Part shown: positions 54,901 to 60,900 of the stretch, in pieces
How positions within the stretch are numbered: position 1 is the first letter of the stretch
How the letters are laid out: the number at the start of each line of letters is the position of its first letter
Assembly: GCF_000027125.1 (NCBI RefSeq)
Contig: NC_017626.1
Reading direction: 5' to 3' (one strand)
Source: Escherichia coli 042
GTDB lineage: Bacteria; Pseudomonadota; Gammaproteobacteria; Enterobacterales; Enterobacteriaceae
DNA: 64,000 nt
Position numbers: made by a program

Positions 54901-57900
54901 AAGCCATTACGCTCATCTTCCGTCACCGGTCCCATCCGCGAACAAGGCGCAATCACCATCGCCCGTTCCACCACAGAAGGACTTCCTTTTGCATCGAGAA
55001 ACGAGATTAACGCCTCGCCGGTCCCCAGTTCCTGGATTGCCTTTTCCGTATCAAATGCAGGGGTGGGGCGCATGGTTTGCGCCGCAGCTTTTACCGCTTT
55101 CTGATCTTTGGGCGTAAAAGCACGCAAAGCGTGTTGAACGCGATTACCGAGCTGGCCGAGCACATTATCTGGAATATCAGACGGGTTTTGCGAAACGAAC
55201 CAGACGCCCACGCCTTTTGAGCGAATAAGCCTTATCACCTGCTCAATCTTATCCAGCAGTACCTGCGGGGCATCGTTAAATAGCAGATGTGCCTCGTCGA
55301 AGAAAAACACCAGTTTTGGTTTCTCCAGATCGCCCGCTTCCGGCAATTGTGCATACAACTCTGAAAGCATCCACAGCAGGCTGGCGGCGTACAGTTTCGG
55401 CATCTGATAAAGCTTCTCGGCGCTGAGGATATTGATAACGCCTTTACCGTTGGCATCGGTGCGCATCCAGTCTTTGATATCCAGCATCGGCTCACCAAAG
55501 AAGTGTGCTGCGCCTTGCTGTTCCAGCGACAACAGCCCGCGCTGGATGGCACCAACCGATGCGCTACTGATATTTCCGTACTGATTCTGGAAGGATTTGG
55601 CGTTATCGCCGATGTACTGGGTAATTGCCCGCAGATCTTTAAAGTCGAGCAGTAACAGCCCCTGATCGTCAGCAATGCGGAAAATGATATCCAGCACGCC
55701 AGATTGCACATCGTTGAGATTCAACAGTCGCGCCAGCAACAGCGGTCCCAGATCCGAAACCGTCGCCCGCACCGGATGGCCTTTCTCGCCAAAGATATCC
55801 CACACCACCACCGGATTGGCATGCGGTTGCCAATCATTGACGCCGATATTTTTAAGCCTTGCGAGCAGTTTTTCCGACGCCGTTCCTGCCTGCGCGATAC
55901 CGGTCAGATCGCCTTTCACATCAGCCATAAACACCGGCACGCCGATTTCCGACAATGACTCTGCCAGTTTTTGCAGCGTAACGGTTTTACCCGTCCCCGT
56001 TGCGCCGGTAATCAGCCCGTGACGGTTCGCCATTCCCGGCAGTAAAAACAGTTCTGTGTCCGGCGTGCGGGCAATTAACAGGGGTTCGCTCATGAGATTT
56101 CCTCCAGTTTCCTGCCTGGAGTATAGGCAACGGCTGCGCACTCTTCACCGCTAAATTCAGCAGATTGCGAGACGCCTTCCAAAGAGATTTAAGTGCCGGG
56201 CGACAGGCACCCGGCAAAGAGATCAGAAGTCAGCTTTCAGAACCACGCGGTAACGCGCCTTACCGTCGCGCACATGCTTGATGGCATCGTTAATTTTCGA
56301 CATCGGGAACAGTTCGGTGGTCGGCGCAACCTTGCTACGGGCGGCAAAGCGCATCAGCTTTCGCAGCTCATAAGGCGTGCCGGTAGCAGAACCAGAGATG
56401 CTGCGGTCGCCCGCAATTAACGTAAAGGCTGGAACAGACAGCGGCGTGAGAACCGCACCGACCGTATGGAAATTACCGCCATAGGTCAGCGCCTCAAAAT
56501 AAGGCGGCCAGTCGAGGCTGACGTTCACAGTATTGATAATGAGATCAAACTGCCCCGACAGGGCTTTCAGTGCCTGCGGATCGCGGCTATTCACCACTTT
56601 ATCGGCACCCATCGCCAGTACTTCCTGCTCTTTCTCCGGATTAGAACTAAAGGCCGTCACCTCGCATCCCATTGCGTGCAGAAGTTTTATAGCGATATGC
56701 CCCAGCCCGCCAATACCAATTACCCCAACGCGGCTGGTAGCAGTGATATGGTGCATCAACAGTGGTTTAAAGACCGTGATACCGCCGCACAACAGCGGCC
56801 CGGCGGACTCGATATCAATATTTTCTGGCAGTGGAATCACCCATTGCCAGTCCGCACGCAACTTCTCGGCAAAGCCACCGCGATTCATAATCGTCGGCAC
56901 AGCACCTTGCTCGCAGTTGATCTGATTACCGCTAATACAGGCGTCGCAGTGACCACAGCTACGCGCCGTCCAGCCAATCCCGACACGCTGACCGACCTGC
57001 AAACCTTTATCCTGCGCGGCGCTCCCGAGTGCCACCACGCGCCCAATCACTTCATGCCCGGCAACCAGCGGATATTGTGAAAATCCCCATTCGTTATCGA
57101 TCATCGACAGATCGGAATGGCAGATCCCGCAGTAATCCACCTGCACTTCAATATCTTGTGGCTTCAGCTCACCGGGATCGTACTCATAAACTTCCAGTTC
57201 GCCGCCCGCTTCTTTTGCGGCATAGCTTCTTATCATCGACATTTTTTGGTCCTTCTCTGGTGTTGTCTGGGAAGTGTAGAGCATGGCAGGGCGGGGTGCC
57301 TGGAGTGTGACAAAGGTTACACATCGCTGTATGCAATGCTGAAAATTTCAGCACTTAGCGAGATGCGAGCAAGCTGGCGCTTGCATGGTGGCGTGCGACA
57401 GGTATAATCCACAACGTTTTCCGCATACCTCTTCAGTGCCGAAGTGGCGAAATCGGTAGACGCAGTTGATTCAAAATCAACCGTAGAAATACGTGCCGGT
57501 TCGAGTCCGGCCTTCGGCACCATCGGAACATCAATAGACGTCAACGGACGTCTTTTTTTGTGCCTGAAATCCAGTATCCGCAAGGCTTTCCTCGATTTTC
57601 CTTTCAACAGAAGTCAATCTGAGTCAACCCACATCAAGTCGCTTGTGAGTATAGAACCGAGTATATATGCTGGTTCGATAATGGTTGTATACTCACAGCG
57701 GCACATGGAAGGAGAACTTTTATGGCTCTGACAGATATCAAAGTGCGTTCTGCAAAACCACAGGAAAAGGAGTATACCCTTGCCGATGGAGATGGCATGT
57801 TTTTGCTCATTCACCCTAACGGCTCAAAATACTGGCGGTTTCGCTTTCGCTTTGGTGGTAAGCAGCACCTGATGGCATTTGGGGTTTATCCTGAAACGTC

Positions 57901-60900
57901 ACTGGCTGATGCTCGTCAAAAAAGGGAAGAGGCCAGAAAACTTGTTGCTGCAGGCATCGATCCCCGTGAACACAAACGTGCAGTGAAAGAAGAGCAGACG
58001 AAAGAGGCTATTACCTTTGAGTCAGTTGCCAGAGAGTGGCACGCAGTAAATAAAAAATGGACAGAAGAACATAGCCGACGGGTGCTGAAGAGCCTGGAAG
58101 ATAATTTGTTCCCAGCAATTGGGAAGCGGAGTATTGATAGTTTTAGTACGCGCGATCTCCTTGTCCCTATCAAAGTAGTTGAGGCTACAGGGCGTCTTGA
58201 AGTGGCTTCGCGTCTTCAGCAGCGTACCAATGCGATTATGCGTTGTGCAGTGCAAAGCGGTTTGATCGATTACAATCCTGCTCAGGAGATGGCTGGGGCA
58301 GTTGCTTCAAGTAATCGTGTCCATCGACCAGCACTTGAACTGAAACGCTTACCTGAACTACTCCAGCGAATTGATAGCTACTCCGGACGACCTTTAACCC
58401 GTCTGGCTGTTGAGCTCACGTTATTAATCTTTATTCGTTCCAGTGAGTTGCGCTTTGCCCGTTGGCCAGAGATCGATTTTGAAAGGGCAATGTGGACAAT
58501 CCCGGCAGAACGAGAAGCTATTGAAGGAGTGAAGCATTCGGAACGTGGCTCGAAAATGCGTACTCCTCATTTAGTGCCGCTTTCTCGTCAGGCACTGGCA
58601 ATCCTTAAACAGGTTCATAAGCTTAGTGGCGAGCGCGATTTTGTTTTCGTTGGAGATCACAATCCTTGTAAACCGATGAGTGAAAATACAGTGAACAAGG
58701 CGCTGCGCGTGATGGGATATGACACTAAGATTGAGGTTTGCGGTCATGGCTTCAGGACCATGGCATGTAGCTCGTTGATTGAATCAGGGCTGTGGTCTAG
58801 GAACGCTGTTGAAAGGCAGATGAGCCATATGGAGCGTAACTCTGTACGTGCTGCTTACATTCATAAGGCTCAACACTTGGATGAGCGTAAAATGATGCTG
58901 CAGTGGTGGGCAGATTTTCTTGATGTAAATCGGGTGAAGGGCGTCAGCCCATTTGATTTTGCCAAGGAGAAATGAGCTATGGTAATGAGGTTATAGATAA
59001 GAGAGAATACTACTTTATCGCGGGTTTTTAGTGGCTGGCAGGTCTAGATGAGTAGAAAATTCAAGTAATCTACACTCACTCGACTTAAAGATGGGGCCTT
59101 TTAAAAGGTCCTGCTTTGATGCTTACTGGAATGATAACCGTCCTAATCGTTGGCGAGTTTGTTCCATAAGTCCTGAATCCATAGGTTTTCTCTCTCATTG
59201 ATATTAAGTAGCACCCATAAATTTTATTCAAGGATAAGAGATAATGGCAAATTTTTCGGTAGCTGCGAGAACATTAATTCATTTAGGGGCGGAACTGATT
59301 ACCTCAGATGAAGTTGCTATAAATGAACTTGTTAAGAATGCTTTTGATGCCGAATCTAAACGGGTTAGGATAAATGTATTCATACCTATTTCGCATTCGT
59401 TAATAGATGACTGCCTTGCAATACTCGACAATAGTAAAAAAGAGGAAGCTCTTCAAGATGATATTTTTCATATAAAGAAAATGTTAATTGAAAGTGTTTC
59501 TGAACCTTCTATTGCAGCCCAAGTAGAAGAGTTGTTGCTAAACTTAACTTCAGATTCTAGCAAGGATGAAGCAAAAAAAATAGTCGAGTCGATAAACTAT
59601 ATAACAATCGAAGATTCTGGTTGTGGAATGGATTTAGCGACACTTGAAACGGTATTTTTGGCAATAGGCACTCCCTCTAAAGTAAACTCTGAAAGTACAA
59701 AAGACTTAAATAGAAAAATCCTAGGCAATAAAGGTATTGGACGTTTAGCAATGATGAGACTTGGGGATATTGCCAACGTTACATCTTGGGTTGAACAAGG
59801 TAGTGCCCATGAAATTGAATTCGACTGGCGAATGTTTGACGATCCTGAAAAAATAATCACCGATATTGAATTTGAAATAAAACCGACCACTTGTCCAAGG
59901 CCAACACCTTCAGGGACTGTAATAAAGATAACAGCACTTAAAAGCTCTTGGACTGAAGAAAAAGTTCGCGAAAAGCTCGTGGGTGATTTTTTTAGAAGGT
60001 TACAAAACCCATTTGTGATGTCATTGGATGAAGGTAGCTCCGATAACACAAAAAAAAATAAAAAGAATAGAACTGTAGGCTTTCCAATAGATGTTCATAT
60101 TAATGGAGGAACTCGAATACCTATCGAAGGTATGAAGAAAGTGTTAACAGATTTAGTTCAGGCTGATATGGAGCTCTGGTTTGACCCAAACGGGATTGGT
60201 GATACACCTGAAGTTATTCTCCGTACGAGTTTGACTGACTACCAACGTGGAAATGAACCTGAAAATACTAATAGAACAATAGAAGAAGTAACACATGTTT
60301 TAAATGTTAATTTTGAAGCACTTAAGAAAATTGGCCCCGTAAGAGCTACTATTAGATGGTTTAATAGAGAACGGTTACGCCAGCAAGCTACTTTGCATGG
60401 TAACTGGAAAGCAGCGAAGGCCGAATTAGATTTATGGTGTGGAGGAATAGCAATATATCGAGATGGTTTTCGCATTGGATTTTCTGGACAATCAACCGGC
60501 GAAGACTGGCTGGGACTAGATAGTTCTGCTCTTAAGAGAGGAGGTTTTGCTGTAAACCGTATTCAGACTGTCGGTGCGTTAGAGATTTCAAGAAAAGAAA
60601 ATCCCGGTTTGGTTGATAGATCTAATAGAGAAGGATTGATTGAATCACCAGAATCCAATCTTGTAAGAGATATGCTGTCGAAATTTGCTATTGATGAACT
60701 TCGTCGCTACATCGGTCATGAAGGGCAAGAAGAGAAGAAAGCACGTCTAAATGATATAGTTGAAAGCGCTCCTGCAACTATACGCGCTCGGATACTGCAA
60801 GCTGAGCAAGGACTCACATCTATAAGGTCTAAGGTTCCCGCAGATGTTCAAGAATCAGTACAATCAATCGCAAATAATTTACACTTTATAAAAAATGAAG

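What the first reader, a model, noticed from the sequence alone, without database searches (positions are those of the whole stretch)
57438..58975. leuX-integrated mobile island with an intact P4-type integrase; far end lies outside the window
The integrase gene begins 200 bp after the 3' end of tRNA-Leu(CAA), the classical attachment site of satellite phage P4 and of many E. coli genomic islands. The integrase ORF is full length with the catalytic HxxR and Tyr regions, so the element may still be excisable. Everything from 57560 to the window end is visibly more AT-rich than the core. Only the left junction is visible here.
Basis: partly seen in the sequence, partly recalled or inferred. Interest (0 to 1): 0.55.

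Follow-up and report, generated by a model that had tools for sequence, protein, structure and literature searches.

The report
leuX genomic island carrying phosphorothioate defence
This is the left end of an ordinary kind of E. coli genomic island inserted in the leuX tRNA gene with an intact P4-type integrase, and its most interesting feature is its cargo: a DNA-phosphorothioation (SspBCD) module always paired with an uncharacterised kinase/receiver-toxin gene pair.

Summary
tRNA-Leu(CAA) is at 57438-57522, a 417-aa ORF starts exactly 200 bp later, and GC falls from about 0.55 to 0.47 and then 0.35-0.40. The ORF is a full-length P4-family tyrosine integrase (55.7% identical to P4 Int) with all catalytic residues present.

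The far end exists in complete genomes holding the same locus. An attR (TTTGAGTCCGGCCTTCG|CACCA, 14-nt exact repeat of leuX) lies 57-77 kb downstream. It is the same attR type as the excisable PAI II536 of UPEC 536.

The island is an IS-riddled mosaic. The arm-type sites beside the resident int (GAGTATA) differ from those at attR (TGTTGGTA, which match PAI II536's own int side). So the int-proximal 11.2 kb looks grafted onto an older island, and excision by the resident Int is doubtful. One carrier has a diverged core but a near-identical island whose right breakpoint lies 2.2 kb beyond attR. That points to spread by flanking homologous recombination.

The int-proximal cargo is sspBCD plus a paraMORC-histidine-kinase gene and a receiver/MazF-fold gene. 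This pair was next to ssp genes in 8 of 8 sampled homologue contexts. I found no paper linking the pair to Ssp.

The island is a new member of a known kind. The cargo link is a worthwhile lead.

The parts
57438..57522 (+). leuX, tRNA-Leu(CAA); the integration target (attL side)
   Evidence: ARAGORN; Rfam tRNA 59.4 bits
57503..57522 (+). attL core. The 20 nt GAGTCCGGCCTTCGGCACCA are identical to the annotated P4 attP core. The first 14 nt (57503-57516) are repeated exactly at attR, 57-77 kb downstream and outside the window.
   Evidence: P4 annotation and alignment; attR in strains 190693, CV839-06 and BEC1; zero chance hits in shuffles
57536..57560 (+). Hairpin plus T-run terminator for leuX, supplied by the element. 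It is conserved in the Pectobacterium, Yersinia and Pantoea copies.
57647..57670 (+). Two tandem 12-bp arm-type repeats, GAGTATAGAACC | GAGTATATATGC, in the same position as the P4 P'-arm repeats
   Evidence: Only such cluster in 147 kb. All three copies co-vary within each host species.
57683..57697 (-). Inverted third arm-type site (TGAGTATACA) just upstream of the int start
   Evidence: Inverted repeat I6, 15 nt, 93% complementary; matches P4 geometry
57722..58975 (+). Intact P4-family tyrosine integrase, 417 aa
   Evidence: Pfam three-domain architecture; 55.7% identity to P4 Int; catalytic residues; 71% identity to the Pectobacterium copy
59244..61628 (+). 794-aa paraMORC-type GHKL ATPase fused to a histidine-kinase core (HEF_HK-type). 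Invariant residues: E28/N32, D124-G126-G128, H585 H-box (HELTRT), and the N, G1 and G2 boxes.
   Evidence: Pfam; NCBIfam; 9-sequence alignment
61625..63475 (+). 616-aa receiver-domain protein (Response_reg_2 type; invariant D21-D23, D144, S179, K208-P209). It has a helical linker and a C-terminal MazF/Kid/CcdB-fold domain. RefSeq starts it at 61631.
63624..64000 (-). 3' part of sspD (PAPS-reductase family). The gene continues past the window end and is followed by sspC and sspB.
   Evidence: Annotation of identical loci; PADLOC SspD 466 bits, SspC 1451 bits, SspB 381 bits

Best explanation
Positions 57438-58975 are the attL junction of a composite genomic island inserted in the 3' end of leuX. 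A P4-family tyrosine integrase once recombined a core sequence on a circular element with the identical leuX 3' end. This regenerated the tRNA and supplied it with a new terminator (shown by sequence).

The right junction (attR) lies outside the window, 57 to 77 kb downstream depending on the strain. It is the same attR, with the same P-arm repeats, as that of the excisable PAI II536 of UPEC 536 (shown).

The island is a mosaic. An int-proximal 11.2-kb unit (integrase, a two-gene kinase/receiver pair, and sspD-sspC-sspB) is conserved as a block in Yersinia, Pantoea and Pectobacterium. In E. coli it ends at an IS110 remnant. After that come IS-bounded sugar, fec and virK/capU/lpxM blocks and a CP4-type backbone (AlpA, Gp2/YfjJ-like, GTPase, Ag43, YeeU/CbtA, DUF957).

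The arm-type sites beside the resident int (GAGTATA) differ from those at attR (TGTTGGTA). I therefore infer that the int-plus-defence unit was grafted onto an older PAI II536-type island, either by tandem integration followed by deletion or by recombination. I also infer that the resident Int probably excises the whole island poorly or not at all.

The island nevertheless moved between E. coli lineages recently, most simply by homologous recombination in the flanking core (inferred from breakpoints).

Functionally, the int-proximal slot is a defence-cargo slot. Here it holds a phosphorothioate system. SspBCD, using host IscS, would mark self DNA. The paraMORC-histidine kinase would relay a signal by His585-to-Asp144 phosphotransfer to a receiver protein that gates a MazF/CcdB-fold toxin domain. 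This mechanism is inferred from conserved residues, folds and gene linkage.
For: Junction and integrase.

Element DNA begins at the tRNA end and is homologous across four genera at about 76% nucleotide identity, up to about 70 bp past the sspB start.

attR: found in three carriers, with no chance hits in shuffles. It is shared with UPEC 536 and about 1376 other genomes. PAI II536 excises through its own P4-like Int (PMC3202238).

Arm-site mismatch: the PAI II536 attL sites match the common attR P-arm, while this island's attL sites do not. The Int arm-binding domains are only 62% identical, against 81% for the catalytic domains.

Mosaic structure.

Carriers: 9 of 5426 complete genomes. Eight share a core flank at about 100%. 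The ninth (BEC1) has a flank 1.2-4% diverged but an island only 0-0.05% diverged. Its left breakpoint is within 290 nt of attL, and its right breakpoint is 2.2 kb past attR, at the accessory/core boundary.

Swappable defence slot: strain B379 has the same int type followed by a C5-methylase pair and SIR2 plus an ATPase.

Cargo: PADLOC SspB, SspC and SspD; kinase and receiver motifs; folds; ssp linkage in 8 of 8 sampled contexts, down to 30% identity.
Against: Excision was not tested. Int is intact, an AlpA/excisionase-type gene is present, and attL and attR share a perfect 14-nt core of the same type as an island known to excise. The GAGTATA and TGTTGGTA sites share a GTAT core, so cross-recognition cannot be excluded.

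The cognate attR for this int type was never seen. It was not in the 21 kb of B379 that I examined, and I did not walk to the right ends in Yersinia or Pantoea.

The left breakpoint of the BEC1 transfer coincides with attL to within 290 nt, which also fits site-specific integration on that side.

For the cargo, no phosphorothioate chemistry, phosphotransfer or phage phenotype was measured. The MazF-fold match is at 6-13% sequence identity, and the C-terminal model is only moderate (pLDDT 77).
Confidence: 0.6

Rival explanations
1. The whole 57-77 kb island is still a functional integrative element. The resident Int, with the AlpA-type factor and host IHF, recombines attL with attR, releases a circle, and can reinsert at leuX, as PAI II536 does.
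For: Intact Int with all catalytic residues. An excisionase-type gene is present. There is a perfect 14-nt direct repeat of the same attR type as PAI II536, and PAI II536 is known to excise at 1e-5 to 1e-6. The island is near-identical in two diverged E. coli backgrounds, with the left breakpoint at or near attL.
Against: The P-arm sites at attR are PAI II536-type and differ from the sites next to the resident int. The arm-binding domain is the most diverged part of the protein. In the traced transfer, near-identity runs 2.2 kb past attR. In CV839-06 and BEC1 the attR core carries a (CTTCGCAC)x4 expansion immediately 3' of the 14-mer.
Confidence: 0.25
2. The integrase is a domesticated or inert relic. 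The only way the region moves is homologous recombination between conserved flanks (the ahr-leuX side and the nanS/nanM side) or between shared backbone segments, which swaps whole blocks or the int-proximal cargo.
For: The BEC1 transfer breakpoints hug the accessory/core boundaries rather than attR. The same LacI/PTS block sits downstream of different int-proximal content in 935 genomes. The same int type carries different cargo in B379. Eight carriers form one lineage.
Against: The int ORF is intact and conserved at 71-87% in the catalytic domain across four genera. Its arm sites co-vary with the arm-binding domain, which argues for continued selection on recombinase function. The same unit sits at two different tRNA-Leu genes, leuX and a tRNA-Leu(UAA), which needs site-specific integration.
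Confidence: 0.15
3. The kinase/receiver pair is not part of the Ssp system. It would be an independent defence or regulatory two-component module that merely co-resides in defence islands, or a regulator of ssp expression.
For: Bellieny-Rabelo et al. found the wider family mostly next to C5-methylase R-M systems (PMC8011034). In the enterobacterial copies the pair is convergent with sspDCB, not co-transcribed.
Against: 8 of 8 sampled contexts have the pair abutting ssp genes, from 76% down to 30% identity, while everything else around them differs. In five non-enteric loci (L009, L013, L014, L015, and the Pseudomonas L008) the genes are adjacent, and in four of these they are collinear as sspB-C-D-A-HK-RR. 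The receiver protein has no DNA-binding output domain. Its output is a toxin-like fold.
Confidence: 0.25

Closest known systems
PAI II536 of uropathogenic E. coli 536 (leuX island with P4-like integrase)
   Same: Same insertion site (leuX). Same attR sequence type and P-arm repeats. Same right-end backbone, DUF5983-DUF957 followed by an HTH remnant. The integrase has the same three-domain family and is 74.7% identical. Large IS-rich mosaic.
   Different: Different arm-type sites on the int side, and an arm-binding domain only 62% identical. Different int-proximal cargo: an AAA protein in strain 536 against Ssp plus the kinase/receiver pair here. Excision and circular intermediates are shown for PAI II536 (PMC3202238) and are untested here.
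Satellite phage P4 integration module (int-attP)
   Same: The attP core is identical to the leuX 3' end. int lies next to the core, with two tandem 12-bp arm repeats plus an inverted copy before the int start. 55.7% protein identity.
   Different: No P4 replication or capsid-hijacking genes (alpha primase, sid, psu, delta, cos) are annotated anywhere in the island. The arm-repeat sequence differs (TTGGGGGCAT in P4).
SspABCD-SspE and SspABCD-SspFGH phosphorothioate defence systems
   Same: SspB (DUF4007), SspC and SspD are present with very high PADLOC scores. sspA is absent from the E. coli locus, as in E. coli 3234/A, where IscS serves (PMC8092258).
   Different: No SspE, SspF, SspG or SspH match. 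Their place is taken by a two-gene phosphorelay pair with a MazF/CcdB-fold output. Wang et al. note that 84% of sspBCD loci have no known partner.
HEF_HK / Response_reg_2 two-component-like pair (Bellieny-Rabelo, Pretorius and Moleleki 2021)
   Same: Two adjacent genes. The first carries HATPase_c_3 plus HATPase_c. The second is a receiver-like protein with no other known domain. The family was found in Pectobacterium.
   Different: That study linked the pair to type II R-M systems and C5-methylases and does not mention Ssp, DUF4007, PAPS reductase or phosphorothioation. Here the partner is sspBCD(A), and the output domain is identified as a MazF/CcdB fold.

Membership tests
P4-family tyrosine integrase | Arm-binding N-domain, central core-binding domain and C-terminal catalytic domain | tested here: met
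   Pfam PF13356 (3.6e-29), PF22022 (1.4e-26), PF00589 (1.8e-19)
P4-family tyrosine integrase | Catalytic R-K-H-R-H-Y set | tested here: met
   R239, K278, H342, R345, H369 and Y380 are conserved with P4 Int. The Lys alignment to lambda K235 is ambiguous, but the residue is identical to P4 K283.
P4-family tyrosine integrase | Sequence similarity to P4 Int | tested here: met
   55.7% identity over 98% of the length, E = 5e-154. NCBIfam PRK09692 scores 277.7 bits, below its curated cut-off of 434.
tRNA-integrated genomic island (PAI II536 / CP4 type) | Insertion at a tRNA 3' end, with the tRNA regenerated by element DNA | tested here: met
   Homology among four host genera starts at the tRNA end, and the terminator is supplied by the element
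tRNA-integrated genomic island (PAI II536 / CP4 type) | Flanking direct repeats (attL and attR) | tested here: met
   14-nt exact repeat located 69.4 kb (190693), 77.3 kb (CV839-06) and 57.4 kb (BEC1) downstream. All lie outside the window.
tRNA-integrated genomic island (PAI II536 / CP4 type) | Deviating base composition | tested here: met
   GC 0.32-0.48 against 0.52-0.56
tRNA-integrated genomic island (PAI II536 / CP4 type) | Recombination directionality factor | tested here: met
   68-aa AlpA/excisionase-type protein, phrog_66, E = 1.4e-10
tRNA-integrated genomic island (PAI II536 / CP4 type) | Matching arm-type sites at both ends for the resident integrase | tested here: not met
   attL has GAGTATA sites and attR has TGTTGGTA sites. 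The control, PAI II536, has TGTTGGTA at both ends.
tRNA-integrated genomic island (PAI II536 / CP4 type) | Excision to a circular form | not testable with these tools
   Needs PCR or long-read evidence
P4-like satellite phage | alpha primase/helicase, sid, psu, delta and cos | tested here: not met
   None is annotated in 57-77 kb of three carriers. Judged by annotation only; no profile search was run.
Ssp phosphorothioate modification module | SspB (DUF4007 nickase), SspC (ATPase) and SspD (PAPS-reductase-like) | tested here: met
   PADLOC scores of 381, 1451 and 466 bits, each full length
Ssp phosphorothioate modification module | SspA cysteine desulfurase in the locus | tested here: not met
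   Absent in the enterobacterial copies and present (Aminotran_5) in L009 and L013-L015. E. coli systems use IscS according to PMC8092258.
Ssp phosphorothioate modification module | Known restriction partner, SspE or SspFGH | tested here: not met
   No PADLOC hit for the two adjacent genes
Ssp phosphorothioate modification module | PT in genomic DNA | not testable with these tools
   Needs LC-MS/MS or PT-seq
HEF_HK / Response_reg_2 pair | Adjacent GHKL-HK gene and receiver-like gene | tested here: met
   The genes overlap by 4 nt in the window. They are adjacent in all 8 contexts.
HEF_HK / Response_reg_2 pair | Pfam HEF_HK and Response_reg_2 matches | tested here: inconclusive
MazF/Kid/CcdB toxin superfamily (C-terminal domain of the 616-aa protein) | SH3-like barrel fold of the superfamily | tested here: met
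MazF/Kid/CcdB toxin superfamily (C-terminal domain of the 616-aa protein) | Catalytic residues or ribonuclease activity | not tested
   6-13% identity. No residue mapping was attempted.

The most novel reading that the evidence does not exclude
The paraMORC-histidine kinase and the receiver/MazF-fold protein next to the integrase are a third, previously unrecognised effector arm of Ssp phosphorothioate defence, alongside SspE and SspFGH. It would be the first in which the DNA-modification status is read out through a His-Asp phosphorelay that gates a toxin-fold domain. It would also account for part of the 84% of sspBCD loci reported as orphan.
Probability: 0.45. Interest if true: 0.7.

Novelty: new member of a known kind. 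Interest (0 to 1): 0.4.

Why it matters
The island itself is routine. leuX is a classic insertion site, and P4-type integrases at tRNA genes are textbook. Two things add value.

First, this is a worked example of how such islands are built and spread. An int-plus-defence unit with its own arm-site specificity sits on a right end that belongs to the PAI II536 type, and the whole block has moved between lineages with breakpoints that do not fit the integrase. This is a caution against reading 'intact integrase' as 'excisable'.

Second, the int-proximal cargo links two literatures that have not been connected: the Ssp phosphorothioate systems, most of which lack a known restriction partner, and the HEF_HK/Response_reg_2 pair, whose function is unknown. 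If the pair is the Ssp effector, both questions become directly testable in E. coli.

Tried and rejected
1. Substitution-only searches for the leuX 3' end found nothing in 126 kb, and I provisionally concluded there was no attR. That was a false negative. A sensitive alignment and an indel-tolerant search then found it.

2. I next read the missing G in the attR core as lineage-specific decay. I rejected this because UPEC 536, KFu023 and AVS0787 carry the same or a shorter form.

3. I thought all carriers were one clone with purely vertical inheritance. I rejected this because BEC1-S17-ESBL-09 has a diverged core and a near-identical island.

4. I asked whether the PT-dependent restriction endonuclease fragments beyond attR decayed because of self-toxicity in a PT-modifying host. 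This is not supported. The locus is common next to nanS in about 1555 genomes and is often fragmentary there too.

5. PADLOC and NCBIfam gave nothing for the 616-aa protein. Rfam found only the tRNA. The promoter scan was no better than shuffles.

6. Literature searches for sspBCD with 'histidine kinase', SspABCD with GHKL, and phosphorothioate with MORC returned nothing relevant. The V. cholerae paraMORC/Shedu paper is unrelated.

7. No attR was found in the Pectobacterium, Yersinia, Pantoea or B379 loci within the 10-21 kb I held. I did not walk further.

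
Full report
**1. Observation.**

ARAGORN places tRNA-Leu(CAA) at 57438-57522 on the + strand, and Rfam agrees. The next long ORF, 57722-58975 (417 aa), begins exactly 200 bp after the tRNA end. GC falls from 0.52-0.56 in the core to 0.47-0.48 over this ORF, and to 0.32-0.41 from about 59000 to the window end.

**2. The integrase.**

Pfam finds the three domains of the P4/CP4 integrase family: Arm-DNA-bind_3, Phage_int_M and Phage_integrase. The protein is 55.7% identical to phage P4 Int over 98% of its length. Aligned with P4 Int, lambda Int and a Pectobacterium homologue, it keeps R239, H342, R345 and H369. 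It also keeps Y380 in a VRAAY motif that is identical in P4, and the hairpin Lys K278. It is an intact P4-type tyrosine recombinase.

**3. The left junction.**

The annotated P4 attP core, GAGTCCGGCCTTCGGCACCA, is identical to the last 20 nt of leuX. DNA homologous to other copies of the element starts immediately after the tRNA. It includes a hairpin plus T-run (57536-57560) that serves as the tRNA terminator.

Between this terminator and int lie two tandem 12-bp repeats, GAGTATAGAACC|GAGTATATATGC (57647-57670), and an inverted copy (57683-57697). This is the same layout as the P4 P'-arm repeats. In Pectobacterium, Yersinia and Pantoea the three copies co-vary (GGGTAYA or TGGTATW). The arm-binding N-domain is also the most diverged part of the protein. 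Both points argue that these are real Int arm sites.

**4. The far end.**

Nine of 5426 complete E. coli genomes hold window 57300-64000 at about 100% identity. I followed three of them.

My first searches, which allowed substitutions only, found no second copy of the leuX 3' end in 126 kb. That was a false negative. A sensitive alignment and an indel-tolerant search found TTTGAGTCCGGCCTTCG|CACCA in direct orientation:

- 69.4 kb downstream in strain 190693.
- 77.3 kb downstream in CV839-06, where it is followed by a (CTTCGCAC)x4 expansion and a relic of a second leuX-type spacer.
- 57.4 kb downstream in BEC1-S17-ESBL-09.

Shuffled sequence gives no such hit. The site lies exactly where the CP4-type backbone ends, after YeeU/CbtA and DUF957.

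The same attR, with the same upstream tandem repeats GTGTTGGTATCT|GTGTTGGTATAG in P4 geometry, is present in about 1376 E. coli genomes, including UPEC 536. In strain 536 identity with leuX also stops at ...CCTTCG. The missing G is therefore a family trait, not decay. PAI II536 excises at 1e-5 to 1e-6 through its own P4-like integrase, forms circles, and reinserts at leuX (PMC3202238).

**5. Mosaic and chimera.**

The accessory region from leuX to the truncated nanS contains the following, in order:

- int
- a kinase-like gene
- a receiver-like gene
- sspD, sspC and sspB
- an IS110 remnant
- a LacI/PTS block shared with 935 genomes
- sugar genes
- IS100
- a BCCT transporter
- virK/capU/lpxM
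- fec
- several IS66 and IS3 copies
- a CP4-type backbone (zinc-ribbon genes, Gp2/YfjJ-like, AlpA-type, GTPase, Ag43, antirestriction, RadC, YeeU/CbtA, DUF957)

The AlpA-type protein matches excisionase families.

In strain 536 the attL arm sites (TGTTGGTACAGA|TGATGGTATTTC plus an inverted TGTACCAACA) match the common attR P-arm. In the window element they do not. Its Int is 62% identical to Int(PAI II536) in the arm-binding domain and 81% identical in the catalytic domain. I infer that the int-proximal unit was grafted onto an older PAI II536-type island.

The unit itself is well defined. About 76% nucleotide identity to the Yersinia, Pantoea and Pectobacterium copies runs from the tRNA end to about 70 bp past the sspB start (11.2 kb) and then stops. 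In Yersinia and Pantoea the unit sits at tRNA-Leu(CAA). In Pectobacterium it sits at tRNA-Leu(UAA). In E. coli B379 the same int type, with identical arm sites, is followed by other defence genes. The slot next to int therefore behaves as a swappable defence-cargo site.

**6. Mobility.**

Eight carriers share the window's core flank at about 100%, while the next-best genomes are at 99.3% or lower. The ninth carrier, BEC1-S17-ESBL-09, differs by 1.2-4% in the upstream core. From leuX onward it differs by only 0-0.05% across the island, apart from IS elements and Ag43.

At nucleotide resolution, using coordinates of the concatenated CV839-06 region (L016 followed by the reverse complements of L018 and L019), the last core SNP is 209 nt upstream of leuX. 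On the right, near-identity runs 2.2 kb beyond the attR core, and dense SNPs resume at the truncated nanS/nanM boundary.

The whole accessory block has therefore moved between lineages recently. The right breakpoint does not sit at attR, so flanking homologous recombination is the simplest mechanism. Int-mediated excision remains possible but unsupported.

**7. The cargo.**

PADLOC identifies SspD, SspC and SspB at full length with 466, 1451 and 381 bits. Only the 3' part of sspD (63624-64000, minus strand) is inside the window. The two genes between int and sspD match no SspE, F, G or H model.

The 794-aa protein has an N-terminal MutL/MORC-type GHKL ATPase and a C-terminal histidine-kinase core. 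Across nine homologues both halves are invariant at every catalytic motif, including an H-box HELTRT with H585.

The pair is the HEF_HK/Response_reg_2 module described by Bellieny-Rabelo et al. (PMC8011034). They linked it to C5-methylase R-M systems and never mention Ssp.

In all eight homologue contexts I sampled, from 76% down to 30% identity, the pair abuts sspB-C-D, with sspA in the non-enteric loci, while the rest of the neighbourhood differs. The hosts were Pectobacterium, Yersinia, Pantoea, Pseudomonas, Dokdonella, Xanthomonas and two metagenomic contigs.

Wang et al. report that 84% of sspBCD loci lack SspE or SspFGH (PMC8092258). I found no paper linking the pair to Ssp. Subscription literature was not searchable.

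**8. Verdict.**

As an island it is a new member of a well-known kind, and its own integrase probably no longer moves it. The added value lies in the documented chimerism and in the Ssp-phosphorelay linkage, which is a testable lead.

Noticed in passing
window 59244-63475; loci L006-L015: The HEF_HK/Response_reg_2 kinase-receiver pair is adjacent to sspBCD(A) in all 8 sampled homologue contexts. It has invariant phosphorelay residues and a MazF/CcdB-fold output domain. I found no published link to Ssp.
   Followed up: yes
CV839-06: L019 about 29100-29160 (position 97542-97600 of the concatenated region L016 + reverse-complemented L018 + reverse-complemented L019); also BEC1: position 77631 of the concatenated region L025 + reverse-complemented L026 + reverse-complemented L027: The attR core is followed by a tandem expansion (CTTCGCAC)x4 and then a diverged second copy of the leuX-proximal spacer with degenerate arm sites but no integrase. 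This looks like a relic of a tandemly integrated element.
   Followed up: partly
L003 3411-4051 (190693); L019 27699-28635 (CV839-06); L026 17613-18549 (BEC1): Fragments annotated 'phosphorothioated DNA-binding restriction endonuclease', plus an HNH endonuclease, lie between attR and the truncated nanS in PT-modifying hosts. The locus is common next to nanS in about 1555 E. coli genomes, so a causal link to Ssp carriage is not shown.
   Followed up: partly
L002 43350 to L003 2749 (strain 190693 only): A cluster of an SNF2-related protein, a large DNA methyltransferase and a DEAD/DEAH helicase is inserted immediately after attR. It is probably another defence system and is absent from CV839-06 and BEC1.
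   Followed up: no
L008 6303-7430 (Pseudomonas xantholysinigenes): A ScoMcrA-like SRA-domain gene sits directly upstream of the kinase-like gene, in the position the integrase occupies in enterobacteria. It may be a further PT-sensing component.
   Followed up: no
L009 11894-13162 and L015 11887-13152: A DndB-family gene lies immediately downstream of the receiver gene in the Dokdonella locus and in a metagenomic locus. DndB is a regulator of the other (Dnd) phosphorothioation pathway.
   Followed up: no
L024 21866-28596 (E. coli B379): The same integrase type, with identical arm sites, carries a cytosine methyltransferase with a partner gene and a SIR2 plus ATPase pair in the int-proximal slot. 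This shows the slot is a swappable defence hotspot.
   Followed up: partly
BEC1 compared with CV839-06, CV839-06 concatenated-region positions 53734-69886: The BEC1 copy of the island lacks a block of about 16 kb (the fec and virK/capU/lpxM region) that is bounded by IS elements. The island is being remodelled by IS-mediated deletion.
   Followed up: partly
L015 1998-2085: ARAGORN calls a tRNA-SeC inside the DUF4007 (sspB) coding region of a metagenomic contig. It is probably a false positive.
   Followed up: no
L003 24408-47518 (strain 190693): A large IS26-bounded multiresistance region (aac(6')-Ib-cr, blaOXA-1, aac(3)-IIe, blaTEM-1, tet(D), sul2, strAB) is inserted in the chromosome between yjiM and the hsd genes. 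It lies well outside the island.
   Followed up: no
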